This document shows, one piece after another, positions 23,601 to 64,000 of a DNA stretch of 64,000 nucleotides (its first letter is position 1; every line of letters starts with the position of its first letter). The DNA is taken from the NCBI GenBank assembly GCA_047946875.1, contig CP181398.1:207154-271153 (forward strand). Direction: 5' to 3'. The position numbers were made by a program, and so were the translations under genes. This DNA is from Candidatus Kerfeldbacteria bacterium (GTDB taxonomy: Bacteria > Patescibacteriota > Patescibacteriia > UBA10025 > JAHIVO01). The notes below the pieces were generated by a model. That model was not told the DNA's origin, ran no database searches, and saw only the letters and a program-made list of their open reading frames with translations.

Positions 23601-24655
23601 GATACGGTTGGGATAGTAACTGTTTGATTGCCGCCATTAGAAGTAGTGACAGTACAAGCAATGTTATTTAATGCCCATCCTGCAATTACTGATTCTGTTA
23701 TTGAATAAGTTGTAAAATCAATAATATCATTATAAGTTTTGGTATTAGTTGAAGTTCCATCATCAATCAGTGAAAAAATTGCTGGGGTTAAACCACCAGT
23801 TGTAGTGTAATCGAAACTTTGTGGACCTTCAGGAATAGCATCTTTAATTATTGTAATGGAAGCTGGGTAAATTACCGCTTCGGCTGATAATGATAGATCT
23901 TGACTGCCACCAGATCCGTTAAGTTCGACCAAACTTGAGTGGTAAGGGGAACCAGGAATAGCTATGGCTGAATTTTCATCGCCCCAGTCTTCTCTAGTAG
24001 AAATGTGTCCACCCCAAGCTAGCACTGGATTAGCTACATCAGCGGTAAAAGTTACAGTGATTATTGCTGTTTTATCGCCAACAAAGCCACTACCATCTGG
24101 GTATTCATAATTTCCAACGTTGGTTATGGTTCCACCAAATAAGGTAAATACACCTGGGATTTGTGTTATGCCAGAATTTTGAGGATCATTAGGAATTGGA
24201 TATGTAGTTGGTGTTAATCCAGGAATACCAATATCAGGATCAGCAGTTAAGACAGTTTCATTATAAGTTGTTAGGTAATCTATGGCATGTTTGTCAGCTT
24301 TTGTGGTATCCCATTTAATGGTTATTGTATTATTAGTGGAATCGATTGTTAAACCGCCCATTTCCATTTTATACGGGATAGTATCACCTTCATAATATAC
24401 TGATTTACTAGCTCCAAGGTTTCCTGTTACCCATTCTTTAGCATCTGTAGCGCATCCATCTGTACTTGGGGATGGTGCTGGATCATTAGCACATTGACTT
24501 ATTTTTGCTGATTCAGCAGCTTGAGCCTCATTTGGTGCGATAAATACCCCAATCATGGATGTATTTAAGATAAGTGCTAGAGTTGCAATAATATTAAGAG
24601 TTTTATATAGAACTCTCTTCGTTTTTTGCGGATGTGGTAATAAATTGATTTTCAT
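17645..24655 (-). CDS. giant (2336 aa) LPXTG-anchored surface adhesin with DUF11 and SdrD/CnaB-type B repeats
   Basis: Signal peptide. N- and C-terminal DUF11 repeats. More than 10 SdrD B-like repeats (G(K/Q)K(F/W)xDxNGNGxxDxGE…GW(T/E)I.L…(T/D)(D/T)xxGxYxF.(L/G)..GxY.V.E). C-terminus LPTTGG, a hydrophobic stretch, then KKE. Confidence 0.8.
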   Translation of the reverse strand: MKINLLPHPQKTKRVLYKTLNIIATLALILNTSMIGVFIAPNEAQAAESAKISQCANDPAPSPSTDGCATDAKEWVTGNLGASKSVYYEGDTIPYKMEMGGLTIDSTNNTITIKWDTTKADKHAIDYLTTYNETVLTADPDIGIPGLTPTTYPIPNDPQNSGITQIPGVFTLFGGTITNVGNYEYPDGSGFVGDKTAIITVTFTADVANPVLAWGGHISTREDWGDENSAIAIPGSPYHSSLVELNGSGGSQDLSLSAEAVIYPASITIIKDAIPEGPQSFDYTTTGGLTPAIFSLIDDGTSTNTKTYNDIIDFTTYSITESVIAGWALNNIACTVTTSNGGNQTVTIPTVSINLEEGENVTCTYTNDRQEGNISGYKWKDSNNDGIWQQATEPGLANWTINLGGDATASTTTDSNGLYSFVNLNPGNYTVSETQQTNWIQTYPTNNVHNVTLLAGQNETDVNFGNVPGVCNLVITKTVDKTTASVGDTLEYTLEYINTGEAICTGGGVQLFDNLDPRLTYNGIHTELISGDVDGQGITFEGNFNGSNPVANAHVVSPGESGAVIFQAVITEPLDCDDFDIPNQAWIWSNETGDIYSNIVNTHVEMDCNGNLKVIKVVNGGTALPEDFGFRIVGSGNPYIYPATTSNYVMFNDLTPNDYTVEEEIIPGYSLTNSTCNSVTVTTGNTAECTITNTRNTGDLIIRKVDQAGAPLDVYVTVDGSEFNDNGWTGTNGEYNVGTIPTDIYTVTETSPQGYTVSGWECVLIGDVPQVWNGTGSTINNAEVFNGRTTICTFTNVRDTGDLTVYKNVDTNGDGQVDVFGATNWNWDIQNGEQNIATGSTRTLATDTYTLSEDMKTGYHVTDVTCNGVSYGANESVQVNLTNQGVVCTFTNTRNVGDLRIKKYNDLNGDGIINGNDYYMTGWYFEVKDGSTVVASGTTGQDPQDSPYLIIRNLPTGSYDVVETQQTGWTNTEPGNGTLTKTVTITNGGLKSVWFGNNRDTGEIIVHKNLDTDGNGIVDEYNVDTWRWDIANGEQNISTGQGRTLTTGSYTISEDMMTNYHVTDLTCDGVSYGAVETKTIQLTKSGVDCTFTNTRDTGDIKVNKEIDTNGDGTFESGNTEANNLGFVWGINAETPARAMGSNKTVVTGTYDVTENDGDVANYHFVGWYVNGSDFTCETTTYHSLPANINVSKNDTTEITLCNTRDTGDIKVNKEVDTNGDGTFDGGNTEANALGFVWGIDSETPARDMGSNETVVTGTYDVTENDGDVANYHFVGWYSNTPGANFNCTNLEGITLPININVSKNNTTEITLCNALDTGDLRIKKYNDLNGDGDKDSNEPYMPGWYFEVKDGSTVVASGTTGQDPQDSPYLIIRNLPTGSYDVVETQQTGWTNTEPGNGTLTKTVTITNGDLESVWFGNFKLGEITGQKWNDLNGDGIWNTGEPTLLGWTIQLLADDMSTVLDTDITDSNGRYEFTGLEKGTYYLNEVQQGGWTQTFPGQGQILGPIDVTSGTDVSGYNFGNFDNIYIAGQKFEDINGNGTKDSGETGLVGWTIELRDAQNNVLDITVTNGVGRYSFDDLAPGTYRVREVQQTGWTQTTTNPADIIAVSGQDVDDIDFGNFKDTKISGHKFNDLNGDGVWDAGEPAIAGWTIYISGNWATSTQTLTDGSYEFTGLTAGDWTVTEDESNTAWIRTTSNPAPITITSGSDITDVDFGNYKKGKISGYKFEDVNGNKTWDTGELALAGWTINLDNGSSDVTDANGYYSFTGLQAGDYNVTETLKTGWTQMTTDPATITVVSGTNSQDNNFGNFQLGIITGYKFEDINNNRQWDGQETGLQGWEINLHEDNTGQPGTIIAQTLTNEFGMFEFTGIVAGTYWLSETMQTGWYQYAPVGGVFGPIVIMSGYDNNSQEEYFEFGNAEKITLTLDKYNDQEVAQGGDGILETTETVAYHIDWSVAGNSIATNVVLTDIIPAELNLDVASITSSIPTVTPPKWDDTTRTITWDFGTQQPNASGFVTYTATLNVPVANGTEIINIAKIAADNSDPQYLEDESKVTVKSAPVLTIVKTVEPTTYVNRGDLVTYTVVVTNVGTDTSINTILSDLLPDGFVYEDTGLATREWSLGDMIVGDSITTTYNVLIGSEVDAGFYDNLAITWSDNHPSIDDIATVEVRIPTVKSEEADPVLVIEKTVDKQFINPGDSVVYTVVITNIGDAQAEAVAINVKLQDLLPAGFTFIDGTVTKTFNLGDILHGESKIITYTAISNGTILPGDYENLAVAWADNHGNVTDFANVEVRAPIVLGEELPTTGGSAMQFLYIFAAALILLFSAYTLKLTVSKKE

Positions 24656-29714: not shown

Positions 29715-29857
29715 CCATAACATAAATAAATACCACAGACAGTAGGTGGCGAGATCTTGAAAAAAGTTCAGGACAAGCATAAAACCTGCCGAGGTGTAAT
29801 AATAAATTTTTATTATCTGTGGTGTCTACACAGATTTTTTTATTAAACAATAATAAT

Positions 29858-51511: not shown

Positions 51512-52921
51512 ATGTTAAAAGTAATATTATACCTATTCTCGGCCTTTAACCTTATTGTATATATATACTTGTTATTCGCAATAGGTAAGAGAATTACATA
51601 TAGTAAAGCACATAGGAGTTTTTTTATACTGATGATATTCACTATATTATGGATTTTTGTCAGGTTGCTTGAAAATACATTTGAGCGGTATTGGGAATTA
51701 TATATTAATTTAGATTTTGCAATAGCAGCACTAATTGGTTATGCATTAGTAATTTTTGCTTTACATTATCCAAAAGAAAATAAGAACCTCTCTCCAATTA
51801 AAGAAATATATATTTTAATGCCAATTGCAATTTTAGCAATCCTGTCATTTTTTAATGTTTATTATGAGATTTTTTCCTATAGAGTAATTGAATATTCTTA
51901 TAATTATATAATATATATTTTAATACTAATTATATATTTTCTTGGGATTGGAGGAACGCTATTTATAAAAAAATTAATAAAGAGTAAGGGTATAGAAAGA
52001 GTACAACTAAAATATATAAGTTTTGGATATATATCTTCAATTTCTGTATTGTTATTTGATAGTATTTATACAGCTTATGAAGGGGCAAGAACTGAGAATT
52101 GGGATTTCATTTTTTTTAATTTTACTATTATATTCGCAATAATAATTACTTACGCCATGTTACGTTATCGTTTTATGGACATACGAGTTATAGTGAGAAA
52201 AAGTATTGTCTATGGATTTTCATTAATTATAGTTTTGGGAGTTTTTGCATATTTCGTTTTGACTTTTAAACAGACAATTGAAGAGTCATGGAATTTGAAT
52301 ACTTCATGGACAGCGGGAATATTAATAATTATTGTAGCAGTAGGATTTCCTTCATTGAAAACTTTTGTGGAGAAGGTGGTTAATAAAATATTTCAAGATG
52401 AAAAAAGTATTGATTTGGCTGTAGCCGAAGTGAAAGAAAAATTATCACATGAAACTGATTTTGATAATTTGATTCATATTATTAAAAAAGAAATTAAAGA
52501 ATATCTTCAAGTTGAAAATATTCAACTTTTTGTATTGGATAAGGTTAATCATAATTTTAAAGGTAAGGATAATGAAGTAGGTAAAAGCATCCCACAAAAA
52601 AGTGATTTGATTAAATATTTTGAAAAGTATGATGATGTTCTTATAACGGAAGAGATTCCGCATTTACAGAATGAGCGTTCAGGTAAATTTGAAATAGAAA
52701 TGTTGAAACAAGCGGATAAGGAAATAAAGAAATATAATTTTAGATTGGCAATGCCAGTGATAGCAGATAAGGAAATTATTGCTGTACTTGGTTTTTCTGG
52801 GATCGGAAAAAGTTTTACAGTTCAGGATATAGATTACCTAAATAAACTAAGAGAACAAATAGCTTTCGCTATAGCTAACGCCTTACTTTATAAAGAGGCT
52901 ATAGATAGGATTAAGAAATAA
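51512..52921 (+). CDS. 7TM-sensor protein paralog 1 (HisKA_7TM-like membrane domain plus GAF-like cytoplasmic domain, no kinase)
   Basis: 7-8 TM. Conserved …MLRYRFMDIRVIVRKS… after the last TM. Paralogous to 55152-56585 and to the N-terminus of the HK at 59994. Confidence 0.55.
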   Translation: MLKVILYLFSAFNLIVYIYLLFAIGKRITYSKAHRSFFILMIFTILWIFVRLLENTFERYWELYINLDFAIAALIGYALVIFALHYPKENKNLSPIKEIYILMPIAILAILSFFNVYYEIFSYRVIEYSYNYIIYILILIIYFLGIGGTLFIKKLIKSKGIERVQLKYISFGYISSISVLLFDSIYTAYEGARTENWDFIFFNFTIIFAIIITYAMLRYRFMDIRVIVRKSIVYGFSLIIVLGVFAYFVLTFKQTIEESWNLNTSWTAGILIIIVAVGFPSLKTFVEKVVNKIFQDEKSIDLAVAEVKEKLSHETDFDNLIHIIKKEIKEYLQVENIQLFVLDKVNHNFKGKDNEVGKSIPQKSDLIKYFEKYDDVLITEEIPHLQNERSGKFEIEMLKQADKEIKKYNFRLAMPVIADKEIIAVLGFSGIGKSFTVQDIDYLNKLREQIAFAIANALLYKEAIDRIKK

Positions 52922-53031: not shown

Positions 53032-54027
53032 ATGACAACTAATAAACCAAAAATTGCATTACTGTTTTGTGGGGGGTCTGCACTTGTTGCGGGAGAAAAA
53101 GTAATCTCTGTAAAAAAAGAAAGTGATATGAAAGCTTGGGTTGATGCTATCCCAGAAATAAATTTGATTGCAGATATTGAGTCGGTTTTCGTGTTTGGTG
53201 GCGATGCTTCAGAAATGAAACCTAAGTTGTGGAGTAATCTCATCAAAGAAATATATAAAAGAATTGGTGAGTATGATGGATTTGTAGTAACGCATGGTAT
53301 AGATACTATGTTATTTACTTCGGCAATGACAACATTCATGCTACAGTCTCTGAATAAGCCAATTATTTTTACAGGTTCTCCATTGTCAGCAGAAGTTACA
53401 GAAAGTGATAAACAAGATTTGTCAGGGTTGATTTCAAATTATAAATCGTTGGGAGTTAAAGCGAATATTATAAATGCGATTCAGGTAGCCACAATGGATA
53501 TCGCTGAAGTAGGAATAATGTTTGGTAATAAATTGATCAAGGCTACTAAGGCAGTGAAAAGTGATACACCGACGTTCAATTTTTTTGATGCGCATCAAGA
53601 CGGTTTGCTTGGTAAGGTAGATTTTGGGATAAAAATTTTGGACAAAACTAAAAAGAGGCATAAAGATAAAGTTCGGTTGATGGATACTATGGAAGAGAAT
53701 ATTTGTTTGTTGCAACTTTATCCTGGAGCCCCAGTAGAATTATTACAACAAATGATAGATAAAGATTGTCAGGGGATTATAGTAAGGAGTTTTAATACGA
53801 ACTTATTTCCTGATAGTTATCGTAGTCTGCTAGAACAAGCTTATAAAAAGAAGATACCGATTGTCGCACATAATCAGTCAGCTCTTGATATTAAGAAAAA
53901 AAAGAAAGAATATATTTTGGTTAATGACCAAACCTTTGAGACGACGTTTGTGAAATTCATGTGGGCTTTGGGGCAAACAAGAGATTTGGGTAAATTAAGA
54001 ATTATTATGTGGGAGAATGGAATTTAA
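53032..54027 (+). CDS. L-asparaginase family protein (type I asparaginase/GatD-like)
   Basis: …IALLFCGGS… N-terminal motif and VVTHGIDTMLFTSAMTTFML…NKPIIFTGS matching asparaginase N-terminal domain motifs. Confidence 0.6.
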   Translation: MTTNKPKIALLFCGGSALVAGEKVISVKKESDMKAWVDAIPEINLIADIESVFVFGGDASEMKPKLWSNLIKEIYKRIGEYDGFVVTHGIDTMLFTSAMTTFMLQSLNKPIIFTGSPLSAEVTESDKQDLSGLISNYKSLGVKANIINAIQVATMDIAEVGIMFGNKLIKATKAVKSDTPTFNFFDAHQDGLLGKVDFGIKILDKTKKRHKDKVRLMDTMEENICLLQLYPGAPVELLQQMIDKDCQGIIVRSFNTNLFPDSYRSLLEQAYKKKIPIVAHNQSALDIKKKKKEYILVNDQTFETTFVKFMWALGQTRDLGKLRIIMWENGI

Positions 54028-54326
54028 TGAAGGAAGAGAAAATATACTACGTCTATATAATAACTAATAAATACGATAAGGTTTTATATATCGGTACCAC
54101 TAGGAATCTAGAGAATAGGATAAGACAACACAAAAATAAAGAATTAACGGGATTTTCTGAAAAATATAATTTGAATAAGCTTGTATATTATGAAGAATTT
54201 GAAATGGCAATAGAAGCTTTTGATAGAGAGAAACAACTTAAGAATTGGCACAGGGAATGGAAAATTAATTTAATCAAAACTATGAATATAGAATTTAAAG
54301 ATTTAGCCAAAGAGTGGTATGAATGA
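54027..54326 (+). CDS. GIY-YIG nuclease family protein (small stand-alone)
   Basis: IYYVYII…VLYIGTTRNLENRIRQH…YYEEF. ATG overlaps the TAA of the upstream gene (TAATG). Confidence 0.75.
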   Translation: MKEEKIYYVYIITNKYDKVLYIGTTRNLENRIRQHKNKELTGFSEKYNLNKLVYYEEFEMAIEAFDREKQLKNWHREWKINLIKTMNIEFKDLAKEWYE

Positions 54327-54556: not shown

Positions 54557-55147
54557 ATGAGAACATACTTTTTTTCACCATTAATATCTACTGACACTCT
54601 GGATAAAAACTATAAGCTTATTATAGAAATTCTAAAAAAAGCTGGTGTGTTCGTCGTGGCCGCGACTGATGAAAATAATACTGATTTCAAAAAAGAAGAA
54701 TTAGAAAATATGCAGGAGTCAGGGGAGATATTGTTAGATAAAATGGATTGTATAATTATCGAAGCTTCCCAGACTGATCAGGAGATAGGATATCTATTAG
54801 CTTATGCAATTTCACAGAAAAAACCATTATTATATTTGTATAAAGTGGGTACCCCAGAAAAAGTTTCATTTGGATATCTTAACAAAAAAAATACTCCCGA
54901 CTTTGTTCGTATGGCTTCATACACTATTAAAGACTTGGAGCAAAAAGTATTGCAGTTTATCGATGAAGTTGGTATGGGCAAGGGGATTAAGGAAAAACCA
55001 ACAATTAAATTTACTCTTCGGATTACTTCTCAAATGGAAAGATATTTGGACTGGAAATCCAAACGTAAGAAAGTTTCTAAGGCAGATTTCTTACGCAAGA
55101 TCTTAGAAAGAATGATTGAGGAGGACGGGGATTTTAGAGGAAAATAA
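54557..55147 (+). CDS. hypothetical protein: Rossmann-like (nucleoside 2-deoxyribosyltransferase-like) N-domain plus C-terminal ribbon-helix-helix motif
   Basis: …DCIIIEASQTDQEIGYLLAYAISQKKPLLYLY… and C-terminal …KFTLRITSQMERYLDWKSKRKKVSKADFLRKILERM. Confidence 0.35.
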   Translation: MRTYFFSPLISTDTLDKNYKLIIEILKKAGVFVVAATDENNTDFKKEELENMQESGEILLDKMDCIIIEASQTDQEIGYLLAYAISQKKPLLYLYKVGTPEKVSFGYLNKKNTPDFVRMASYTIKDLEQKVLQFIDEVGMGKGIKEKPTIKFTLRITSQMERYLDWKSKRKKVSKADFLRKILERMIEEDGDFRGK

Positions 55148-55151
55148 TTTT

Positions 55152-56585
55152 ATGACTTTGATAACCATATCTACAATTATTGCAGTTCTGTCTAATGTTA
55201 TTCTAGGTTTATTTATAATAATGAAAGATAGATACAGTAAAACTAATCAATTACTAAGTGCTTATTGTTTTTTTATATCAATATGGGCAATTTCAAATTA
55301 TTTTTCACTTTCTCTTATTGAAAAAGGGGATATATTACTTTCAATGAGAGCAGTAATGTCATTTGCTACAGCTCAATCAATTGCTATATTATTATTTGTA
55401 ATTAATTATCCAAAAAGATCTTTTGATATAAAAGATAAGTGGAAATTGCCAATTATATTTTCAGGGTTAATAGTATTTATTTTGAGTTATACACCTTTTA
55501 TATTTTCTGATGTAATTATTTTCCAAGATGGTAGAACGCATTTACCTGTTGTTGAACCAGGAATTATGTTATTTGCTCTTGTTACTCTTGGTTCAATTTT
55601 CTTATCAATAATTATATTATTAAGAAGGGTAAAAAAAGAAGTTGGTTTATTAAAGTTACAATTAAAATATGTGCTTTATGGTTTAATGGTTATGTATTTT
55701 GGAATAATAGTTTTCTCTTTTGTATTTGTTGTAATTTTTAATAATTCAGATTATGTACATCTTAGTTCATTTTTGACACTGCCTTTTATAATACTAACTA
55801 CTTATTCAATTTTGAAATATCGTTTGATGGATATAAAGGTTGTAATGAAGAAAGGACTAGCTTATTTTATTTCAGTATTAATTTTGTTGTTTGGATATAT
55901 ATATTTACTATTTGTTTCGAAAGACTATCTTGTAAATGAGTATGGATATTCTGAGCAAACAATCTTGATTATATTAATATTAGTAATTGTTTTAACGTTT
56001 GAGCCATTGAGAAGATGTATTATTAAGCTTGTAGATAAAGTACTATTTTCTCAAGTTGAAGAGGAGAAAATACAAACTGATAAATTACGCATAACTCTCA
56101 GCTCTACAATGCAGTTTGATCAGTTGATAAATAAAATAGAGTCATTCTTAAAATATTTCTTAAATATTGAGGAGACGAATTTTATATGGCTAAATAAAGA
56201 GACTGGTAAGTTACAAAATTATAATAAGAGTAAAAAAATAGTTTTGGAAACTACTGGACCAGTTTTTCAATATTTGAAAAATAATACGGAAATTTTGGTA
56301 ACGGAAGAGATCCCATATTTGATAGAACAGATGAGTAACGGGGAGAGGGAGTTGCTAGTTAAAGTGGAAAAGAAGCTCAAGGATTTAAATGTCTACATGG
56401 TTATGCCAGTTGGTGAACCAGGGGAGTTGATGGGGATCTTTCTATTAACCCAAAAGAAAAATAAAGAAGCATTTACGACATATGATGTTGAGTATCTTAT
56501 TAAGTTGCAACCGCAAATGACAGGGGCGATTGCCAATGCGATATTTTATAAGCAGGCGGTGGAGAGGATTGGTAGGACGGAATAA
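55152..56585 (+). CDS. 7TM-sensor protein paralog 2 (no kinase domain)
   Basis: Same architecture and conserved segments as 51512-52921 (…ILKYRLMDIKVVMKKG… ; …IFYKQAVERIGRTE). Confidence 0.55.
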   Translation: MTLITISTIIAVLSNVILGLFIIMKDRYSKTNQLLSAYCFFISIWAISNYFSLSLIEKGDILLSMRAVMSFATAQSIAILLFVINYPKRSFDIKDKWKLPIIFSGLIVFILSYTPFIFSDVIIFQDGRTHLPVVEPGIMLFALVTLGSIFLSIIILLRRVKKEVGLLKLQLKYVLYGLMVMYFGIIVFSFVFVVIFNNSDYVHLSSFLTLPFIILTTYSILKYRLMDIKVVMKKGLAYFISVLILLFGYIYLLFVSKDYLVNEYGYSEQTILIILILVIVLTFEPLRRCIIKLVDKVLFSQVEEEKIQTDKLRITLSSTMQFDQLINKIESFLKYFLNIEETNFIWLNKETGKLQNYNKSKKIVLETTGPVFQYLKNNTEILVTEEIPYLIEQMSNGERELLVKVEKKLKDLNVYMVMPVGEPGELMGIFLLTQKKNKEAFTTYDVEYLIKLQPQMTGAIANAIFYKQAVERIGRTE

Positions 56586-56620: not shown

Positions 56621-56911
56621 ATGAGGAAGTTTTTTGTTTATATTATGGCAAACAGGAATAATAACGTGTTATATGTTGGAGTGACGCGTGATTTGGAATA
56701 TAGGATTTGGGAGCATAAGAATAAAGTACACAAAGGTTTTACCAGTAAGTATAATGTGAATAAGTTGGTTTATTATGAGGAGTTTGATAGTGCATATGAA
56801 GCGATTATGCGGTAGAAGCAGTTGAAAGGTGGATCTAGACTTAAGAAAGTATTATTAATTGAAAGTATGAATAAAGATTGGATTGATTTATCAGCTGAGT
56901 GGTATTATTGA
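56621..56911 (+). pseudogene. GIY-YIG nuclease paralog disrupted by an in-frame TAG (GAG to TAG)
   Basis: FVYIMANRNNNVLYVGVTRDLEYRIWEH…YYEEF then TAG. The downstream frame continues KQLKGGSRLKK…AEWYY, which aligns to the intact paralog. Confidence 0.6.
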
Positions 56912-58285: not shown

Positions 58286-58485
58286 GTATATATAAGGTTA
58301 GCATTGTACTAATTTTATAGCCGTCACATTAAATTAAAAATTTAATAATTCAATAGTAACCTTCCCTATAAAGTATGCGCCGTCTTATTTTTAAGCCGTC
58401 GCAGAAATATGTGGAAGGTTTTTTATTTTGGAAAAATAAAAAATAAATTGATAAATAAACATTGAACTTTAAAAAGGAGAATCTA

Positions 58486-58935
58486 ATGCACCGATTTAAA
58501 ATCAAAACCTCACCAACAAGTAGAGGTGAATGGAAAGCAACTGCAATGAAAGGTCATAAAGAAGTTGCGGTATCTTATGGTATATCAAGACAGAAAGCGA
58601 TTGACGAGGTAATAAAGAAAATGCCTGAAGACAAACGCTTTAAAACTACAACTGGTCGAACGCCAAATGGTGCGGGATGTTTTGCAACTGTAAAGGATTA
58701 TCAAACCGGTGAGAGTTGGACGGGTAATCATTCATATGATACGGGTACAGCATTAAAAGAGATTGAACCATTATTACCAAAAGAATATTTCTTTCAAAAG
58801 AATGGTTCAGAGTATAGGATGAATGGTAGAAATGAGTGGGCTAGTCATCATGGTTGGAAAGCATTTGGAATTCCAGTAATCATAATGTGTGTAATTGTAG
58901 TTATTATTATGGTCTTAATTGGTAATCTACCATGA
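58486..58935 (+). CDS. hypothetical protein with C-terminal TM helix
   Basis: AAAGGAG RBS 7 nt upstream of the ATG at 58486. C-terminal hydrophobic IPVIIMCVIVVIIMVLIG. Confidence 0.45.
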   Translation: MHRFKIKTSPTSRGEWKATAMKGHKEVAVSYGISRQKAIDEVIKKMPEDKRFKTTTGRTPNGAGCFATVKDYQTGESWTGNHSYDTGTALKEIEPLLPKEYFFQKNGSEYRMNGRNEWASHHGWKAFGIPVIIMCVIVVIIMVLIGNLP

Positions 58936-59134
58936 TTAAATTGGGGATTATAGTTATTAATACTATTTTCCCCAATAAAAAAACTGGGCTAAATCCTGAC
59001 TAAGGCGAACATCCACATTTTACTTTTCAGTCAAGTCTTTGTCCCAGTAATACAGCTAAAAGAACTACTTATATTATATAGCTTTGTAGATTGATAGTCA
59101 ATGCGACTTGTACACAGGCGAATTAATGAATTTA

Positions 59135-59165
59135 ACATCGGACAATTGAGTTCGACGTTTTTTTA
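59135..59165 (+). terminator. intrinsic terminator, paralog of 58213-58243
   Basis: acatcgga-caattgag-ttcgacgt plus T7. Confidence 0.5.
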
Positions 59166-59291
59166 TGCTAAAATTAGGATATAAGAAAAATAAAAATAAA
59201 AGAGATCATATGAAAAATAATTTAATGAATAACCCAATATTTAAGGAGGGGATTTTTTGTATGGGCCAAAAACCTTTACAAAAGTCTATTT

Positions 59292-59972
59292 TTGTGGTAT
59301 GATAAAGGTATGAAAATAATAAATTCAATAAAAACATTTTTTTTAAAATATAAAATTAAGACACAGAATAATGGGATTGAATTTAGAATTGCACAAACGC
59401 AAGATGAAAAAGACGAAGTATATAAATTAAGATATAGTGTTTACTGCGAAGAAAAAAAATATTTAAAAGTAAGTGATTATCCAGATGGATTAGAGTTTGA
59501 TAAATATGATCCAATTTCTGATCATTTTATTGCTTTAAATAAAATAGGTAAAATTGTTGGAACATTAAGGTTGGTTCCAAGAGATAATAATTTATTTAAT
59601 GAAAAGAGAATTCCTTTAGAATATTATACCGATATAGAAAATCATATAAACAGTAAAAGCGTTGTTAGTGAATTGTCAAGATTTACTATAGATAAGAATT
59701 ATAGAACTAAATACTCAATTAATTTTGGATTGATAAAAAGGGCAACACTTTTTGCTTTAGCTGAAGGTATTACTCATTTTGCCATATCAACTTCTGTAAA
59801 TAGCAAAAATTATTTTGAAAGATTTGGATTTCATCAAATTGGAGAATCTTATATATATCAAAAATTACAATATAAATTACCTTCAATAACTATGATAACG
59901 AGTATACAAAAAGGATTAAAGAAGATGAGAGATTCAAATATAGGTTTTTATGATTATTTTATTTCTAAATAA
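59292..59972 (+). CDS. GNAT-fold N-acyltransferase of the LuxI/FeeM (autoinducer synthase / N-acyl amino acid synthase) type
   Basis: …VYKLRYSVYCEEKKYL…DHFIALNKIGKIVGTLRLVP…ELSRFTIDKNYR… resembles N-acyl amino acid synthase signatures. An alternative start is at 59310. Confidence 0.5.
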   Translation: MWYDKGMKIINSIKTFFLKYKIKTQNNGIEFRIAQTQDEKDEVYKLRYSVYCEEKKYLKVSDYPDGLEFDKYDPISDHFIALNKIGKIVGTLRLVPRDNNLFNEKRIPLEYYTDIENHINSKSVVSELSRFTIDKNYRTKYSINFGLIKRATLFALAEGITHFAISTSVNSKNYFERFGFHQIGESYIYQKLQYKLPSITMITSIQKGLKKMRDSNIGFYDYFISK

Positions 59973-59993
59973 ATTACTAAATAATTTTCTTAG

Positions 59994-62852
59994 ATGACAT
60001 TTACAAATTTAATATTATTATTTGCTGTATTAATAAATTTAATTATTGGAATAATAATATTTTTTAAAAATAATAAAAATCAAGTTAATCGGTCATTTTT
60101 ATTATTTATTATTGGAATTGTTGGTTGGATTTTAACTATTTTCTTTATTCAATATAATCAAAGTCTATTATTAGGTAAATTAGCTTTTGTATTTTCATCT
60201 TTAATGACTGCAAGTTTTTTATTTTTTTGTATTACATTTAAATCAAAGAGAAAAAAAATAAAATTTGTTTATTTATTACTTGTTTATTTGCCGGTCATTA
60301 TTTTTATTGTTAGTTTACCAACAAATTTTTTAGTTAAAGAAATTATTGATGTACACGGTATTCAAATTGAAGGGGTGAGGGGAATAGGTTATCCAATATT
60401 TTCAATTACTTTTTTTCTAGAATTATTGATGGGTTTCTATTTTTTGATTAAAAATTTTAAAGAATCAAGTGGAGTTTTTAAGATTCAATTAAGATACGTA
60501 TTTTTTGGAACTATACTTTTTGCATTTTTTGGTTCAATGACAAATATCATATTGCCATTACTTGGTTTGTCTCAATTTAATGGAATTGGTCCTTCATTTT
60601 CTGTTTTTATGGTAATTTTTATTGCTTATGCAATTGTAAAACATAAATTACTTGACATAAGGTTAATCGTACTGAGAACAATTTCTTATTCGTTAATTGT
60701 GTTATTCATTTCATCAGCAGTAGTTGGATTAGCAATATTATTACCAGAGGCAGTTGACGCAAATAATGTGGTGAAATCTTTAATAGCAATTGTTGTGTCA
60801 GTATTAATTGTACTTATTTTAGACCCTCTCAAAAAGGGTATCGCAAGAATAACTGATAGGTTATTTTTTAAAGCAAGTGTAGATTATAAAAAATTATTAG
60901 CAGATCTATCTCAAATTATAAATCGTGAGATTGATATGGATAGGTTACTTTTTTTAATGTCCAAGAAACTTGAAAAAGAGATAAAATTAAAGAATGTGAG
61001 TATTTATTTAGTTGGTAGTATTGGAGGGGCTTTTTATAAACGTAAAGGTAGGGTTGATAAAGATGGTAAGAAAATAACATTAGGTAATACTCATGAAATG
61101 AATGACACTGATGAGCATGATTTTAAGAGTAGAATTTCACATGATAATCCTTTGATAGAATATTTAAATGAATCGCAGGATATTATTGTACTTGAAGCAC
61201 TGGAAAGAAAAATAGAAGATACTCAAGATGACAAGCATAGAAAAAAGTTAGAATTATCAAAGAAATCACTAGATGAGTTAGATGCTGGAGTAGTCGCCCC
61301 AGTAAATGTTGGTAATAGTCTTAATGCTATTATGGTCTTCGGACCGAAACTTTCTGGTGATCCGTTTGGTAGTGAAGATATAGAATTATTTAAACTAATC
61401 GGACCACAGTTATCTTCAGCATTAGAGAAATCACGTCTGTATGATGAAGCGAAACAATTTACAGAAAGATTAAAAAAAGAAGTTGCTTTGGCTACAGAGC
61501 ATATGCGCAGTACCAATGTCCAACTCCAAGAACGTAATAGATTTTTATCAGCTTTACAAAAAGTTACATCTTTAATGACTCAGACTTTGGATTTCAATAA
61601 AGTTACGCAATCAATCGCTGATAGTATCTCTACCGAGCTTGGATATCTTGGAGGGATAGTTATGTTCCTAGGTAAAGATAGACATAAATTATTTCCTGAT
61701 GCGGTTACTGAGACGCCAATGATTAAAAAAGCTTTGAAATTATTACCAAAACCTTATACAGAATTTTATGGTGATTATCGTAAAGACAAAAGTAGGACTA
61801 TCACCGCTATTAAAGATGGTAAAGTGCAGATAGGACATGATCTTAATGATTTTATCGGTCCTGCTGTGCCTAAGTTAGTTAGTAAAGCTATCCAAAAATT
61901 AGTTGGTGTTAAAACAATAGTTGCAATACCAATTTTCTCTGAGAAGAAAGCAATTGGTGTAATAGATTTTTTACTTAAAGATGAAGCTGATGAAATAAGA
62001 GAAACGGATTTATCAATCATGAAAGCCTTAGCTAATCAAACGGGGATTGTGTCTAGAAATATTGAATTATACAAACAGGTTCAAGACTCGAACAAAGAAT
62101 TAGCTGAAGCTAATGTTCACTTGCAACAGCTAGATCAATCTAAGTCAGAATTTGTATCTATCACTTCTCATCAATTACGTACACCGATGACAGGAATAAT
62201 GGGTTATCTGTCTATGATTTTGCAAGGGGACTTCGGTAAGGTACCAAAAGAACAAAATGAGGTTTTGACAAATCTATTAGAAGAATCACAACGCATGATT
62301 AGAATTATTAATTTATTCCTAAATGTTAGTAAGATTGAATCAGGTAAAATGGAATTAAATCTAGAAGAAGTTCAGATAGAGGACGTAGTAACAAAAGTTA
62401 TTGCCATGGTCCAACAACCTGCTGATGAAAAAGGATTGAAATTAATTTATAATAAACCGGCGAAACCATTAGCTAAAGTCTGGGGAGACAAAGATAAGCT
62501 TGGTGATATTGTTTTAAACTTTACTGATAATGCTATCAAATATACTGAGAAGGGAACTATTACTCTGACTACGAAGGTAGAAGGAGATTATATGCATTTT
62601 GCAGTTAAGGATACTGGTCGTGGTCTTGATAAAGCAGAAGCAAAGAAATTGTTTACAAAGTTTGTTCGTGGTTATGGTATTGCTCAAGTTAATCCAGATG
62701 GATCAGGATTGGGTTTGTATGTAGCTAGAAGGTTGGCAGAAGCTCACAAAGGAGAAATTTGGGTAGAATCAGACGGCGTTGGTAAAGGTTCAATTTTTCA
62801 AGTGAAAATACCATTGGCTAATGGTCAAAAGGTAGTAAAACCGAAAAAATAA
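59994..62852 (+). CDS. sensor histidine kinase: N-terminal 7TM sensor domain, GAF-like regions, HisKA and HATPase_c
   Basis: 7TM N-terminus paralogous to the two orphan sensors. H-box ITSHQLRTPMTGIMGY. G-boxes DTGRGLD and GSGLGLYVARRL. Confidence 0.8.
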   Translation: MTFTNLILLFAVLINLIIGIIIFFKNNKNQVNRSFLLFIIGIVGWILTIFFIQYNQSLLLGKLAFVFSSLMTASFLFFCITFKSKRKKIKFVYLLLVYLPVIIFIVSLPTNFLVKEIIDVHGIQIEGVRGIGYPIFSITFFLELLMGFYFLIKNFKESSGVFKIQLRYVFFGTILFAFFGSMTNIILPLLGLSQFNGIGPSFSVFMVIFIAYAIVKHKLLDIRLIVLRTISYSLIVLFISSAVVGLAILLPEAVDANNVVKSLIAIVVSVLIVLILDPLKKGIARITDRLFFKASVDYKKLLADLSQIINREIDMDRLLFLMSKKLEKEIKLKNVSIYLVGSIGGAFYKRKGRVDKDGKKITLGNTHEMNDTDEHDFKSRISHDNPLIEYLNESQDIIVLEALERKIEDTQDDKHRKKLELSKKSLDELDAGVVAPVNVGNSLNAIMVFGPKLSGDPFGSEDIELFKLIGPQLSSALEKSRLYDEAKQFTERLKKEVALATEHMRSTNVQLQERNRFLSALQKVTSLMTQTLDFNKVTQSIADSISTELGYLGGIVMFLGKDRHKLFPDAVTETPMIKKALKLLPKPYTEFYGDYRKDKSRTITAIKDGKVQIGHDLNDFIGPAVPKLVSKAIQKLVGVKTIVAIPIFSEKKAIGVIDFLLKDEADEIRETDLSIMKALANQTGIVSRNIELYKQVQDSNKELAEANVHLQQLDQSKSEFVSITSHQLRTPMTGIMGYLSMILQGDFGKVPKEQNEVLTNLLEESQRMIRIINLFLNVSKIESGKMELNLEEVQIEDVVTKVIAMVQQPADEKGLKLIYNKPAKPLAKVWGDKDKLGDIVLNFTDNAIKYTEKGTITLTTKVEGDYMHFAVKDTGRGLDKAEAKKLFTKFVRGYGIAQVNPDGSGLGLYVARRLAEAHKGEIWVESDGVGKGSIFQVKIPLANGQKVVKPKK

Positions 62853-63000
62853 GTTTAGTAATATCTAGAATTTTAATTCAAGTAGTTTTTTGGTATATAT
62901 AATAAGTAGTTATTGACATTTGTTTAAGTAGATGGTAAATTATTTAGAAAATTAGCTCTTTGAAAATTAAATATGATATATAAAGAAATGAGGAATAATT

Positions 63001-64000
63001 ATGTCACTTCGAGTCGCAGCAATAGCTGCACCAGGTTATCTGAGAGGACGACCTGCGGGTACCACATTAGCCAGTAAAGATCCAGCAAGTCTATATAATG
63101 CTTGTCGGTATGCTGCTCATTTAGCAGATAATAGTACTGGTTTATGGGGAGATAGTAATTGGGCAGACGGCAGAAAGTCGAGACGCTCATCAGTGCTATT
63201 ATTAAATTCTTTGCAGGAAGATATGCAGGAATTTGAAGAAATGTTATTACGTGTTAAGCCTAATTTGCTTTTGATCGGTTCGATGACTTTATGTCTTCTT
63301 GGAGCGGTTGAATGTGCAAAAAAAGCTAGAGAAATGTTTGGCGATCAGATATGTATAGTTCTTGGTGGTAAGCATGTTAATGAGTCAGTTTATATTGATC
63401 AAGGAACTGGTCAGATTACTCATCATGTTAGCTCACCATTACGTTTGGTGGCTGATGGTCATATAGATAATATTTTTGATCTTGTAATTGCTGGTGAAGG
63501 GGAATATGTAATTGCTAAAATTGGAATGGTTGTCAGCATGCTTGATAAAAGAAAATCATCATTAGCTGATATAAAAAAATCATTATATTATCTTTCTCAA
63601 GCTCAAGGTAATTATATTATTGGCACGGTTGTTAATAATGATATAAGAGTTGTCCAGAGTAGAGGATTACCAATTGATAGAAACACATTACCGTCACCAA
63701 GTAGTATGTTTGGTATACAAACATCGTTTGATATATACCCTGGCACCAAAACTGCTCATGTTTTTAGTGATACTGGTGGTGGATGTGTTTTGAATTGTGA
63801 TTGGTGTAGTGAGTGCCTTTTGGTAAATGGTTCACTCAAGCAAGTGAACACTAGTGCTAATCGGTTGTATAGGCAATTGCAAAGTGCGATAGAAGTAGTT
63901 AGTCATGATAGTCCTGGTTATAAAACTAGTGCATTTGTTGAAGACTCAATAATGTTGGCTTCAAGTCCCAGACAGTTAAAGATGTTTTCGACTTTATTAG
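63001..64000 (+). CDS. B12-binding-domain radical SAM protein (partial; continues beyond the window end)
   Basis: Own translation, frame open to the window end. N-terminal Rossmann-like B12-binding-type region (…LLLIGSMTLCLLGAVECAKKAREMFGDQICIVLGGKHV…) then the CxxxCxxC radical SAM motif (CVLNCDWC). Confidence 0.6.
   Translation, partial: MSLRVAAIAAPGYLRGRPAGTTLASKDPASLYNACRYAAHLADNSTGLWGDSNWADGRKSRRSSVLLLNSLQEDMQEFEEMLLRVKPNLLLIGSMTLCLLGAVECAKKAREMFGDQICIVLGGKHVNESVYIDQGTGQITHHVSSPLRLVADGHIDNIFDLVIAGEGEYVIAKIGMVVSMLDKRKSSLADIKKSLYYLSQAQGNYIIGTVVNNDIRVVQSRGLPIDRNTLPSPSSMFGIQTSFDIYPGTKTAHVFSDTGGGCVLNCDWCSECLLVNGSLKQVNTSANRLYRQLQSAIEVVSHDSPGYKTSAFVEDSIMLASSPRQLKMFSTLL

What the first reader, a model, noticed from the sequence alone, without database searches (positions are those of the whole stretch)
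59292..64000. LuxI/FeeM-like N-acyltransferase, 7TM histidine kinase and B12-radical SAM: candidate small-molecule signal locus
A GNAT-fold enzyme with N-acyl amino acid/autoinducer-synthase-like motifs lies immediately upstream of the only complete sensor kinase. A cobalamin-binding-type radical SAM enzyme (CVLNCDWC) follows. Synthase, tailoring enzyme and sensor in a row is the layout of a diffusible-signal production and sensing unit. Such a unit would be notable in a reduced genome.
Basis: inference. Interest (0 to 1): 0.55.

Follow-up and report, generated by a model that had tools for sequence, protein, structure and literature searches.

The report
Acyl-signal synthase and membrane kinase pair
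A small-genome (Kerfeldbacteria) bacterium carries a LuxI/FeeM-like N-acyltransferase gene directly next to a many-pass membrane sensor kinase. This pairing recurs in related uncultured bacteria and looks like a make-and-sense signalling unit, whereas the neighbouring radical SAM gene belongs to a separate cassette.

Summary
All three genes exist as described. The GNAT (59310-59972) is a LuxI/FeeM-like N-acyltransferase. The kinase (59994-62852) combines HisKA_7TM, GAF, HisKA and HATPase domains. The radical SAM gene (63001 to beyond 64000) belongs to TIGR04434 and has a B12-type fold.

The GNAT-kinase link is real. In 6 of 7 neighbourhoods of GNAT relatives (28-70% identity), a HisKA_7TM kinase follows within two genes. 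One contig carries two such modules in tandem. Relatives usually also have a class I methyltransferase, which elsewhere occurs fused to the GNAT, and single-domain response regulators. The window copy is stripped down: it has no methyltransferase, and no receiver domain lies within 74 kb.

The radical SAM gene is not part of this unit. It has its own promoter-like site, and its conserved partners lie downstream (a B3_4 protein and a different methyltransferase). It is absent from every other GNAT-kinase locus. Its relatives never sit beside a GNAT or kinase.

LuxI-like synthase and sensor kinase pairs in CPR bacteria, including Kerfeldbacteria, were already catalogued in silico (Bernard et al. 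2020). This is therefore a new member of a predicted, untested kind. Interest is moderate.

The parts
59138..59165 (+). Terminator-like hairpin plus T-run. It marks the upstream boundary of the GNAT-kinase unit.
   Evidence: It is the only terminator-like site in 58400-64000. This is a consensus match only.
59275..59303 (+). Promoter-like site TTTACA-17-TGgTATGAT (extended -10). It ends 6 nt before the GNAT ATG, which implies a leaderless or near-leaderless mRNA.
   Evidence: Found in the scan. The 15-mer TTTTTGTGGTATGAT and the flanking AAAGTC block are conserved at the same position upstream of the 70%-identical GNAT in L062 and L063. Function is inferred.
59310..59972 (+). LuxI/FeeM/TIGR03694-like GNAT N-acyltransferase, 220 aa (XOU94688.1), the putative N-acyl amino acid or AHL-like synthase.
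   Evidence: Pfam and NCBIfam hits. The family profile matches BjaI and LasI in the PDB. The AF2 fold is nearest FeeM and BjaI. The LuxI-family residues are invariant: R41, E62, D64, D67, R87, E121, S123, R124. GC is 23.2% against a window mean of 32.8%.
59994..62852 (+). Sensor histidine kinase, 952 aa, with about 9 TM helices (HisKA_7TM core), a GAF-like middle region, GAF, HisKA (H726) and HATPase_c. It has no receiver domain. It is the putative membrane receptor.
   Evidence: Pfam and TM and motif analysis. Its 7TM domain is closer to GNAT-adjacent kinases of other organisms (E 1e-21 to 1e-43) than to the 7TM paralogues of its own genome (E 1e-6 to 1e-12). The gap to the GNAT is 21 nt.
62913..62941 (+). 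Promoter-like site TTGACA-17-TAAATT with an upstream TG, in the 148-nt spacer before the radical SAM gene.
   Evidence: Found in the scan. The spacer has no stable hairpin (z = +1.84), so read-through from the kinase cannot be excluded.
63001..64000 (+). N-terminal 333 aa of a TIGR04434 B12-binding-domain/radical SAM protein (518 aa, XOU94690.1). It is the first gene of a separate cassette that continues beyond the window (B3_4 protein, class I methyltransferase of a different family, then ProRS-proBCA).
55116..56585 (+). Paralogue with HisKA_7TM plus the middle domain but no kinase core (a truncated sensor).
   Evidence: Pfam HisKA_7TM 3.2e-8. phmmer matches the 7TM and middle regions but not the kinase region. 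A similar kinase-less protein lies directly upstream of the GNAT in L057-L060.
51512..52921 (+). Second, more distant, kinase-less 7TM plus middle-domain paralogue.
   Evidence: phmmer gives 7TM 2.4e-6 and middle region 1.9e-7, with no kinase match.

Best explanation
The interval holds two independent units.

Unit 1 (about 59275-62852) is a two-gene operon and a pared-down copy of a module that recurs in CPR-type bacteria. The full module has a LuxI/N-acyl-amino-acid-synthase-like GNAT, a class I SAM methyltransferase, a HisKA_7TM histidine kinase and one or more single-domain response regulators.

Proposed mechanism: the GNAT transfers an acyl chain from an acyl-thioester (acyl-CoA or acyl-ACP) to the amine of an amino acid (or of SAM), making a lipophilic N-acyl amino-acid-type molecule. 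In relatives the partner methyltransferase modifies this product, most simply by capping the carboxylate to give a neutral, AHL-like methyl ester. The product partitions into membranes and is read by the loop-less, roughly nine-helix membrane domain of the co-transcribed kinase. That domain signals through the GAF domains to the DHp/CA core (H726). In this genome the phosphoryl acceptor is encoded elsewhere and the product would be unmethylated.

Shown here: the family and fold of each protein, intact catalytic motifs, conserved synteny, tandem co-duplication of the module, and methyltransferase-GNAT fusions. Inferred: the chemistry of the product, that the kinase senses it, and the output.

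Unit 2 (from about 62913 onward) is a TIGR04434 B12-type radical SAM enzyme with a B3_4-domain protein and another methyltransferase. It is an accessory cassette of unknown chemistry, unrelated to unit 1.
For: - GNAT family and fold. All LuxI-superfamily catalytic and substrate-binding positions are invariant across the 10-sequence alignment.
- Kinase: intact, and almost entirely membrane-embedded at its N-terminus.
- Conserved neighbourhood of GNAT relatives:
  - L003 (57% identity): GNAT, MTase, 7TM kinase, then 3 receivers.
  - L057-L060 (58%): GNAT, MTase, 7TM kinase, receiver.
  - L060: a second, diverged GNAT-MTase-7TM module in tandem.
  - L070 (55%): GNAT, MTase, 7TM.
  - L052 (about 30%): MTase, GNAT, 7TM kinase, receiver, then PilB and PilC.
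- Congruent divergence: identities of the GNAT, MTase and 7TM parts rank the modules the same way.
- Specificity: none of 47 TIGR03694-like loci from other phyla has a HisKA_7TM neighbour.
- Rosetta-stone evidence: at least 8 of the top 149 cluster representatives are fusions of this same methyltransferase family with the GNAT.
- Operon signals: a 21-nt GNAT-kinase gap and a conserved promoter-like element upstream of the GNAT.
- Separation of the radical SAM gene: plus a promoter-like site and a GC step from 30.5% to 37%.
- Published in-silico precedent: 18 of 36 CPR LuxI homologues lie next to a sensor kinase (PMC7567580).
Against: - No experiment exists for any member. No product or ligand is known, and HisKA_7TM has no assigned ligand.
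- The closest GNAT relative (70% identity, L062) is followed by an FAD_binding_4 oxidase, not a kinase.
- The closest kinase relatives (50-56%, L065 and L067) have the methyltransferase but no recognisable LuxI-like GNAT. Other unannotated proteins occupy that position. The kinase subfamily is therefore not strictly tied to this GNAT.
- The window copy lacks the methyltransferase, and no receiver domain lies in 74 kb. It could be a decaying remnant.
- L057 and L070 are close relatives, so the seven neighbourhoods are not fully independent. HisKA_7TM genes are also frequent in this genome (3 in 64 kb).
- CPR bacteria generally lack fatty-acid synthesis (own knowledge), so the acyl donor is unclear. 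No ACP was found in the window (only 5% of the genome).
- The absence of a terminator after the kinase leaves co-transcription with the radical SAM gene possible.
Confidence: 0.5

Rival explanations
1. The GNAT and kinase are functionally linked, but not as signal and receptor. The GNAT (with the methyltransferase in relatives) makes a lipoamino-acid effector, such as a surfactant, antimicrobial or membrane lipid of the N-acyl tyrosine, stieleriacine or ornithine-lipid type. The kinase senses something else, such as membrane state or a host cue, and merely shares the operon.
For: [quoted passage not shown]
- Weak OlsB-like matches.
- The kinase subfamily also occurs with other upstream enzymes, and the GNAT also occurs with an oxidase instead of a kinase.
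Against: - Tandem co-duplication and parallel divergence of GNAT, MTase and 7TM sensor in L060 is what specificity-matched signal and receptor pairs show. It is not needed for a plain regulator.
- The sensor is a loop-less membrane domain, suited to lipophilic ligands.
- OlsB equivalog scores are far below cut-off (34 vs 320 bits).
Confidence: 0.27
2. The window copy is a decaying or repurposed remnant of the module. After losing the methyltransferase and the adjacent response regulators, the GNAT and/or kinase no longer work as a unit.
For: - No methyltransferase of the module family and no receiver domain lie in the window plus 10 kb downstream.
- Two kinase-less 7TM paralogues nearby show that such sensors are being truncated in this genome.
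- The sister lineage (L062) has already lost the kinase adjacency.
- The GNAT has aberrant GC, 23%.
Against: - Both ORFs are full length with every invariant catalytic residue and kinase box intact.
- The promoter-like element is conserved with the 70% relative.
- Response regulators can be encoded elsewhere, and only about 5% of the 1.31-Mb genome was visible.
Confidence: 0.13
3. One reading: the synthase (GNAT), tailoring enzyme (B12 radical SAM) and sensor (kinase) form one three-gene signal production and sensing locus.
For: The genes share a strand. No terminator-like hairpin lies between the kinase and the radical SAM gene, so read-through is possible.
Against: - No radical SAM gene occurs in any of six other GNAT-kinase neighbourhoods.
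- No GNAT or kinase occurs near radical SAM relatives in Patescibacteria, Actinophytocola or Rhizobium.
- The radical SAM gene keeps its own downstream partners.
- The syntenic L067 lacks it.
- The spacer carries a promoter-like site, and GC steps up at the boundary.
- The methyltransferase downstream of the radical SAM gene is not homologous to the module methyltransferase.
Confidence: 0.04
4. The GNAT-kinase adjacency is inherited synteny or chance, without functional meaning.
For: HisKA_7TM genes are abundant here (3 in 64 kb). Several of the supporting loci come from related uncultured lineages.
Against: The adjacency persists down to about 30% GNAT identity and in a different gene order (L052). 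It was duplicated as a block (L060). The GNAT-adjacent 7TM domains form a group that is more similar across organisms than to same-genome paralogues.
Confidence: 0.06

Closest known systems
LuxI-homologue and sensor-kinase syntenic pairs in CPR genomes (Bernard et al. 2020, mSystems, PMC7567580, Table S4)
   Same: These are the same kind of pair: a weak LuxI/GNAT homologue directly next to a sensory kinase in Patescibacteria. They include Kerfeldbacteria entries (PIS42786/PIS42785, HBY73149/HBY73150). They were proposed as complete quorum-sensing candidates.
   Different: That catalogue is purely computational and predates this genome (XOU accessions). It does not describe the HisKA_7TM identity of the sensor, the accompanying methyltransferase (including fusions), the single-domain receivers or the tandem duplication found here.
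[quoted passage not shown]
   Same: This is the best-scoring curated family for the GNAT (92.5 bits). It shares the N-terminal motifs LRYxVYCxE, YPDGxExDxYD and ELSRF. Those enzymes make long-chain N-acyl amino acids, and a signalling role through a neighbouring kinase has been proposed (own knowledge of the TIGRFAM comment).
   Different: The score is below the family cut-off of 111.95, and only profile positions 6-126 of 241 align. The characteristic insert of P0009 and P0010 is absent. None of 47 TIGR03694-like loci had a HisKA_7TM neighbour. No exosortase context was seen.
FeeM, N-acyl tyrosine synthase from soil eDNA (PDB 2g0b)
   Same: It is the closest solved fold (Foldseek E 8e-12, TM 0.80 on the target). 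The Pfam FeeM domain scores above threshold.
   Different: Identity is only 16-18%. The sequence-profile match to FeeM (1.6e-3) is weaker than to AHL synthases. FeeM works with a dedicated ACP inside a biosynthetic cluster, not next to a kinase.
LuxI-type AHL synthases, especially the CoA-dependent BjaI, RpaI and MesI (PDB 5w8a, 6wn0, 6wns)
   Same: They are the best PDB sequence matches to the family profile (BjaI 1e-13, LasI 1.4e-9). The R/E-x-D-x-x-D/R/E-x-S-R residues are conserved. Pfam PF00765 scores above its gathering score. Use of acyl-CoA would suit an organism without fatty-acid synthesis.
   Different: NCBIfam AHL-synthase equivalogs score about 24 bits against 250-292 needed. The W34 equivalent is Tyr. 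The family's partnership with a methyltransferase or with ThiF suggests a product with a free carboxylate rather than a lactone. The receptor is a kinase, not LuxR.
Synthase and membrane-kinase quorum-sensing pairs: LuxM-LuxN and AinS-AinR (Vibrio), CqsA-CqsS and LqsA-LqsS
   Same: The logic and layout match: an autoinducer synthase gene lies next to a kinase whose multi-pass membrane domain binds the lipophilic signal (own knowledge).
   Different: The synthases are unrelated (LuxM family; PLP-dependent CqsA) and so are the membrane domains. LuxN and CqsS are hybrid kinases or feed a phosphorelay. This kinase has no receiver domain.
Cobalamin-dependent radical SAM enzymes TsrM and OxsB; NCBIfam TIGR04434 (rSAM_Pput_1520)
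   Same: The radical SAM protein passes the TIGR04434 cut-off. Its model aligns over its full length to TsrM and OxsB, with an N-terminal Rossmann-like domain followed by the radical SAM barrel.
   Different: TM scores are only 0.42-0.50 and identity is 10-13%. There is no PF02310 or PF04055 hit, no solved homologue by sequence and no literature on the family. Substrate and reaction are unknown.

Membership tests
LuxI-type AHL synthase (PF00765 / NCBIfam AHL-synthase equivalogs) | Pfam PF00765 at or above the gathering score | tested here: met
   29.5 bits against 24. It is outscored by the clan relatives PF13444 (58.6) and PF21926 (54.1).
LuxI-type AHL synthase (PF00765 / NCBIfam AHL-synthase equivalogs) | Curated equivalog score (TraI-type models NF052393, NF010408) | tested here: not met
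   23.9 and 23.4 bits against cut-offs of 250 and 292.
LuxI-type AHL synthase (PF00765 / NCBIfam AHL-synthase equivalogs) | Conserved N-terminal and beta-4 residues (R24, F28, W34, E43, D45, D48, R68, E97/101, S, R100/104 in LuxI, EsaI or LasI numbering; recalled from the literature) | tested here: inconclusive
   R41, Y45, Y51 (Tyr in place of Trp), E62, D64, D67, R87, E121, S123 and R124 are present and mostly invariant. TIGR03694-type N-acyl amino acid synthases share these residues, so they do not discriminate.
LuxI-type AHL synthase (PF00765 / NCBIfam AHL-synthase equivalogs) | Makes an acyl-homoserine lactone from SAM | not testable with these tools
   Needs expression and LC-MS.
TIGR03694 PEP-CTERM/exosortase-associated N-acyl amino acid synthase | Score at or above the curated cut-off over the full-length profile | tested here: not met
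   92.5 bits against 111.95, with only profile positions 6-126 of 241 aligned. A true member, P0009, scores 245 bits over positions 3-239.
TIGR03694 PEP-CTERM/exosortase-associated N-acyl amino acid synthase | Genome carries an exosortase/PEP-CTERM system | not tested
   Only 64 kb plus 10 kb of a 1.31-Mb genome was visible, and no dedicated search was run.
FeeM-type N-acyl amino acid synthase (PF21926) | Pfam domain above threshold and FeeM-like fold | tested here: met
   54.1 bits against 27. 2g0b is the top Foldseek hit, E 8e-12.
FeeM-type N-acyl amino acid synthase (PF21926) | [quoted passage not shown] | not testable with these tools
   Biochemical. No ACP was found in the window, which is weak evidence.
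OlsB ornithine N-acyltransferase | NCBIfam equivalog score | tested here: not met
   34.2 and 32.5 bits against 320 and 350.
HisKA_7TM sensor histidine kinase (PF16927 + HisKA + HATPase_c) | 7TM domain, phospho-acceptor His and ATPase boxes | tested here: met
   PF16927 53.7 bits against 28.6, with profile positions 1-222 of 224 aligned. HisKA 5.9e-17 and HATPase_c 7e-25. H726 and the N, G1 and G2 motifs are present.
Synthase-receptor quorum-sensing unit (LuxM/LuxN- or CqsA/CqsS-like logic) | Synthase and membrane kinase adjacent, co-oriented, and conserved as a pair | tested here: met
   The gap is 21 nt. The kinase is present in 6 of 7 neighbourhoods of GNAT relatives, including one tandem duplication.
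Synthase-receptor quorum-sensing unit (LuxM/LuxN- or CqsA/CqsS-like logic) | Cognate response regulator or phosphorelay partner | tested here: not met
   No receiver domain lies in the window plus 10 kb downstream (REC HMM). Relatives have 1-3 single-domain receivers directly downstream.
Synthase-receptor quorum-sensing unit (LuxM/LuxN- or CqsA/CqsS-like logic) | The kinase binds the synthase product; the response depends on cell density | not testable with these tools
   Requires biochemistry or cultivation.
TIGR04434 B12-binding-domain/radical SAM protein | Score at or above the curated cut-off, plus the CX3CX2C cluster motif | tested here: met
   566.2 bits against 550 for the full-length P0011. 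C262, C266 and C269 are invariant.
Cobalamin-dependent (class B-like) radical SAM enzymes | Recognisable B12-binding domain | tested here: inconclusive
   PF02310 is not detected, and only 3 of 120 homologues carry it. The AF2 model aligns end to end with TsrM and OxsB. Cobalamin binding itself is untested.

The most novel reading that the evidence does not exclude
HisKA_7TM kinases of CPR bacteria are dedicated membrane receptors for N-acyl amino acid (methyl ester) autoinducers made by the neighbouring LuxI/NAS-like GNAT and methyltransferase. This would be a previously uncharacterised quorum-sensing chemistry and receptor class. Tandemly duplicated, diverged modules would act as orthogonal channels, and single-domain receivers would provide the output, possibly to type IV pili. 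It would give HisKA_7TM its first ligand. [quoted passage not shown] The window would hold a methyltransferase-less variant that emits and senses the free acid.
Probability: 0.25. Interest if true: 0.7.

Novelty: new member of a known kind. Interest (0 to 1): 0.4.

Why it matters
CPR/Patescibacteria are ultra-small, mostly uncultured, host-dependent bacteria, and how they communicate is unknown. If the GNAT-kinase pair really is a self-made signal and its receptor, it would show that they invest scarce genome space in their own lipophilic autoinducer. It would also offer a tractable test: express one 220-aa enzyme and look for N-acyl products. The comparative data refine the published in-silico catalogue. 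The conserved unit is GNAT, class I methyltransferase, HisKA_7TM kinase and CheY-like receivers, not GNAT, kinase and radical SAM. For annotation, the radical SAM gene should not be read as a tailoring enzyme of this locus.

Tried and rejected
- Exact-sequence look-ups of the TTG-start GNAT and of the kinase found nothing. The ATG-start GNAT did. The kinase itself is not in the protein collection.
- The scan of 185,579 species genomes with the GNAT alignment returned only relatives of 40% identity or less, mostly Proteobacteria of the TIGR03694 type. It returned no close CPR relative and not this genome. The patterns were narrow, so the CPR homologues listed by Bernard et al. were missed.
- I tested whether the methyltransferase downstream of the radical SAM gene is the displaced module methyltransferase. 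It shows no homology to it in either direction.
- I tested whether the 45-aa ORF with an AGGAGG site upstream of the GNAT (59165-59302) is a precursor or leader peptide. It is not conserved in the 70% relative, whereas the promoter-like element is.
- I tested whether the 275-aa and 442-aa proteins at the GNAT position in L067 and L065 are diverged GNATs. Only a sub-threshold Acetyltransf_1 hint appeared (E 0.13), and the GNAT HMM gave no hit. These sequences could not be submitted for structure prediction.
- Rfam found no riboswitch or leader near the locus. No tRNAs were found.
- PADLOC gave no defence-system hits for the radical SAM, B3_4, methyltransferase or GNAT proteins.
- Literature searches for TIGR04434, Pput_1520, and radical SAM plus AdoMet decarboxylase found nothing.
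- A PDB sequence search for the radical SAM protein found nothing.
- The 1.31-Mb contig could not be fetched, so the genome-wide response-regulator, ACP and acyl-CoA inventory was not possible.
Full report
**What is there.** The window comes from a Candidatus Kerfeldbacteria (CPR/Patescibacteria) genome. The GNAT and radical SAM proteins are GenBank XOU94688.1 and XOU94690.1, on a 1.31-Mb contig. Positions 59292-64000 hold three + strand ORFs.

**The GNAT.** The ORF opens at TTG 59292, but the start is almost certainly ATG 59310 (220 aa, as annotated).
- Pfam gives Acetyltransf_5 1.1e-15, FeeM 2e-14 and Autoind_synth 6.4e-7 (29.5 bits, gathering score 24).
- NCBIfam's best model is TIGR03694, the exosortase-associated N-acyl amino acid synthase, at 92.5 bits. 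That is below the 111.95 cut-off, and only the N-terminal half of the profile aligns. OlsB and TraI models score far below their cut-offs.
- A profile of ten homologues hits AHL synthases in the PDB (BjaI 1e-13, LasI 1.4e-9, MesI, TofI, RpaI, EsaI) more strongly than FeeM (1.6e-3).
- The AF2 model (pLDDT 86.5) is structurally closest to FeeM, then BjaI.
- The superfamily's signature positions are invariant: R41, E62-x-D64-x-x-D67, R87 and E121-x-S123-R124.
- The protein is therefore a bona fide LuxI/NAS-superfamily N-acyltransferase, but it fits none of the curated subfamilies.
- The clade is rare. Only 3 of 1.84 billion cluster representatives reach E ≤ 1e-30. No close relative was found among 185,579 species genomes.

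**The kinase (59994-62852).** It has a HisKA_7TM domain inside about nine hydrophobic helices with minimal loops. A GAF-like middle region, a GAF domain, HisKA (H726) and a complete HATPase_c follow. It is the only kinase core in the window. Two paralogues (55116-56585 and 51512-52921) have the 7TM and middle parts but no kinase.

**The radical SAM gene.**
- It starts at 63001 and is cut after 333 of 518 aa. CVLNCDWC is the CX3CX2C cluster motif, invariant in 41 homologues.
- The full protein passes TIGR04434 (566 vs 550 bits).
- Its AF2 model (pLDDT 93.6) aligns end to end with the cobalamin-dependent enzymes TsrM and OxsB.
- Pfam PF02310 and PF04055 do not detect it.

**Is the GNAT-kinase adjacency meaningful?** I recovered seven neighbourhoods of GNAT relatives.

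| Locus | GNAT identity to window | Gene order |
|---|---|---|
| Window | - | GNAT, kinase |
| L003 | 57% | GNAT, class I methyltransferase, HisKA_7TM kinase, 3 single-domain receivers |
| L057-L060 | 58% | Same order, then one receiver |
| L060, second module | 28-30% | Diverged GNAT, methyltransferase, 7TM, in tandem with the first |
| L070 | 55% | GNAT, methyltransferase, 7TM |
| L052 | about 30% (1.0-Mb chromosome) | Methyltransferase, GNAT, 7TM kinase, receiver, PilB, PilC, pilin |
| L062 (closest relative) | 70% | GNAT, FAD-linked oxidase |

- Only L062 breaks the pattern.
- The 7TM domains next to GNATs resemble each other across organisms (E 1e-21 to 1e-43). They resemble the window's own 7TM paralogues far less (1e-6 to 1e-12).
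- None of 47 TIGR03694-like loci from other phyla has such a neighbour.
- The methyltransferase is one family. It also occurs fused N-terminally to the GNAT in at least eight cluster representatives. This is Rosetta-stone evidence that the two enzymes act on one product.
- GNAT-ThiF fusions also exist. Together with the methyltransferase, this hints (inference) at a product with a free carboxylate, that is, an N-acyl amino acid rather than a lactone.
- The closest kinase relatives (L065 and L067, 50-56%) keep the methyltransferase but have other, unannotated proteins where the GNAT would be. The kinase and methyltransferase may therefore partner with more than one kind of enzyme.

**The window copy is reduced.** It has no module-type methyltransferase and no receiver domain in 64 kb plus 10 kb downstream. 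The GNAT and kinase are 21 nt apart. A promoter-like TTTACA-17-TGgTATGAT ends 6 nt before the ATG and is conserved with the 70% relative. This suggests a leaderless bicistronic mRNA (inference). The GNAT is compositionally odd, at 23% GC against 33% for the window.

**The radical SAM gene is a different unit.**
- Downstream of it lie a B3_4-domain protein and a methyltransferase of another family, then ProRS-proBCA.
- The same rSAM, B3_4, methyltransferase, ProRS row occurs in another Patescibacteria genome with unrelated upstream genes.
- In Actinophytocola and on Rhizobium symbiosis plasmids, the radical SAM gene is instead followed by a SpeD-like decarboxylase.
- L067 is syntenic with the window: it has a homologue of the 157-aa protein upstream, and ProRS-like-proB-proC downstream. 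It has no radical SAM gene.
- No GNAT-kinase locus contains a radical SAM relative.
- The 148-nt spacer has a TTGACA-17-TAAATT site, and GC rises from 30.5% to 37%.
- No terminator is present, so read-through cannot be ruled out. Comparative evidence still argues against a functional trio.

**Mechanism (best estimate, about 0.5).** The GNAT N-acylates an amino acid (or SAM) using an acyl-thioester. The lipophilic product is sensed in the membrane by the 7TM domain of the co-transcribed kinase. The output runs through a response regulator encoded elsewhere. In relatives the product is also methylated and the receivers are adjacent. The analogy is to LuxM/LuxN or CqsA/CqsS logic built on a LuxI/NAS-type enzyme.

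The main rival (about 0.27) is that the product is an effector lipid and the kinase is only a co-located regulator. A remnant scenario (about 0.13) is also possible. The acyl donor is an open problem because CPR bacteria usually lack fatty-acid synthesis (own knowledge). The resemblance to CoA-dependent BjaI may be relevant here.

**Novelty.** Bernard et al. 2020 (PMC7567580) already reported in silico 36 LuxI homologues in CPR, 18 of them next to a sensory kinase, including Kerfeldbacteria pairs. The window is thus a new member of a predicted but untested kind. Several details appear not to be described: the HisKA_7TM identity of the sensor, the methyltransferase partner and its fusions, the tandem modules, and the exclusion of the radical SAM gene. 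Most of these concern relatives rather than this locus. Interest is moderate (0.4).

Noticed in passing
window 63001-64000, continuing in L002 2799-5802: A TIGR04434 B12-type radical SAM gene forms a conserved cassette with a stand-alone B3_4 (PheRS-beta-like) domain protein and a class I methyltransferase, directly upstream of ProRS-proB-proC-proA. The same row occurs in another Patescibacteria genome (L004). In Rhizobium sym plasmids and Actinophytocola the same radical SAM gene is paired with a SpeD-like AdoMet decarboxylase instead. The function is unknown and I found no literature.
   Followed up: partly
window 55116-56585 and 51512-52921: Two proteins have HisKA_7TM plus a GAF-like middle domain and end just before the HisKA domain, so they are kinase-less sensors. 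A similar truncated or split copy lies directly upstream of the GNAT in L057-L060 (L060 4360-5870, ending inside the H-box). They may be decoys, or products of recurrent kinase truncation.
   Followed up: partly
L060 5998-10572: Two complete GNAT-methyltransferase-HisKA_7TM modules lie in tandem and have diverged to about 25-32% identity in every part. This is the pattern expected for orthogonal signal and receptor channels.
   Followed up: partly
proteins P0199, P0229, P0265, P0269, P0275, P0295, P0298, P0325; P0193, P0219: Natural fusions exist of the module-type class I methyltransferase with the LuxI/FeeM-like GNAT (about 350-480 aa). Separate GNAT-ThiF (E1-like) fusions and double-GNAT proteins (P0185, P0201) also exist. 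Their genomic contexts could not be examined.
   Followed up: partly
window 59275-59310: The conserved promoter-like -10 (TGgTATGAT) ends only 6 nt before the GNAT ATG, implying a leaderless mRNA. The TTG at 59292 lies inside this element, so it is unlikely to be the start codon.
   Followed up: partly
window 58462-58935; L067 1510-1956 and 6401-6835: A 157-aa protein of unknown function has a C-terminal membrane anchor and lies just upstream of the GNAT. In the syntenic L067, two paralogues flank the enzyme-methyltransferase-kinase block in opposite orientation. It has no Pfam or PADLOC hit.
   Followed up: partly
window 54009-54326 and 56621-56815: Two GIY-YIG-domain small ORFs, the second only 64 aa, bracket the kinase-less 7TM gene. 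They may be mobile nuclease relics that contributed to local rearrangement.
   Followed up: no
window 59310-59972: The GNAT gene has 23.2% GC (GC3 12%) against 32.8% for the window and 30.5% for the adjacent kinase. It is compositionally atypical, which may reflect recent acquisition.
   Followed up: no
L052 (OZ246408.1, 677694-692125): A 1.0-Mb chromosome labelled 'uncultured Gammaproteobacteria' carries the methyltransferase, GNAT, 7TM kinase and receiver module directly upstream of PilB, PilC and pilin genes. The genome size and gene content look CPR-like, so the taxonomic label may be wrong. The layout hints at type IV pili as an output.
   Followed up: no
window 17645-24655 (- strand): A 2336-aa ORF, by far the largest in the window, lies in a block of minus-strand genes with higher GC (36-38%). 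It was not annotated.
   Followed up: no
window 29715-29849: Ribosomal protein L10 leader (Rfam RF00557, 52.7 bits). It is the only Rfam hit in the window, and there are no tRNAs.
   Followed up: no
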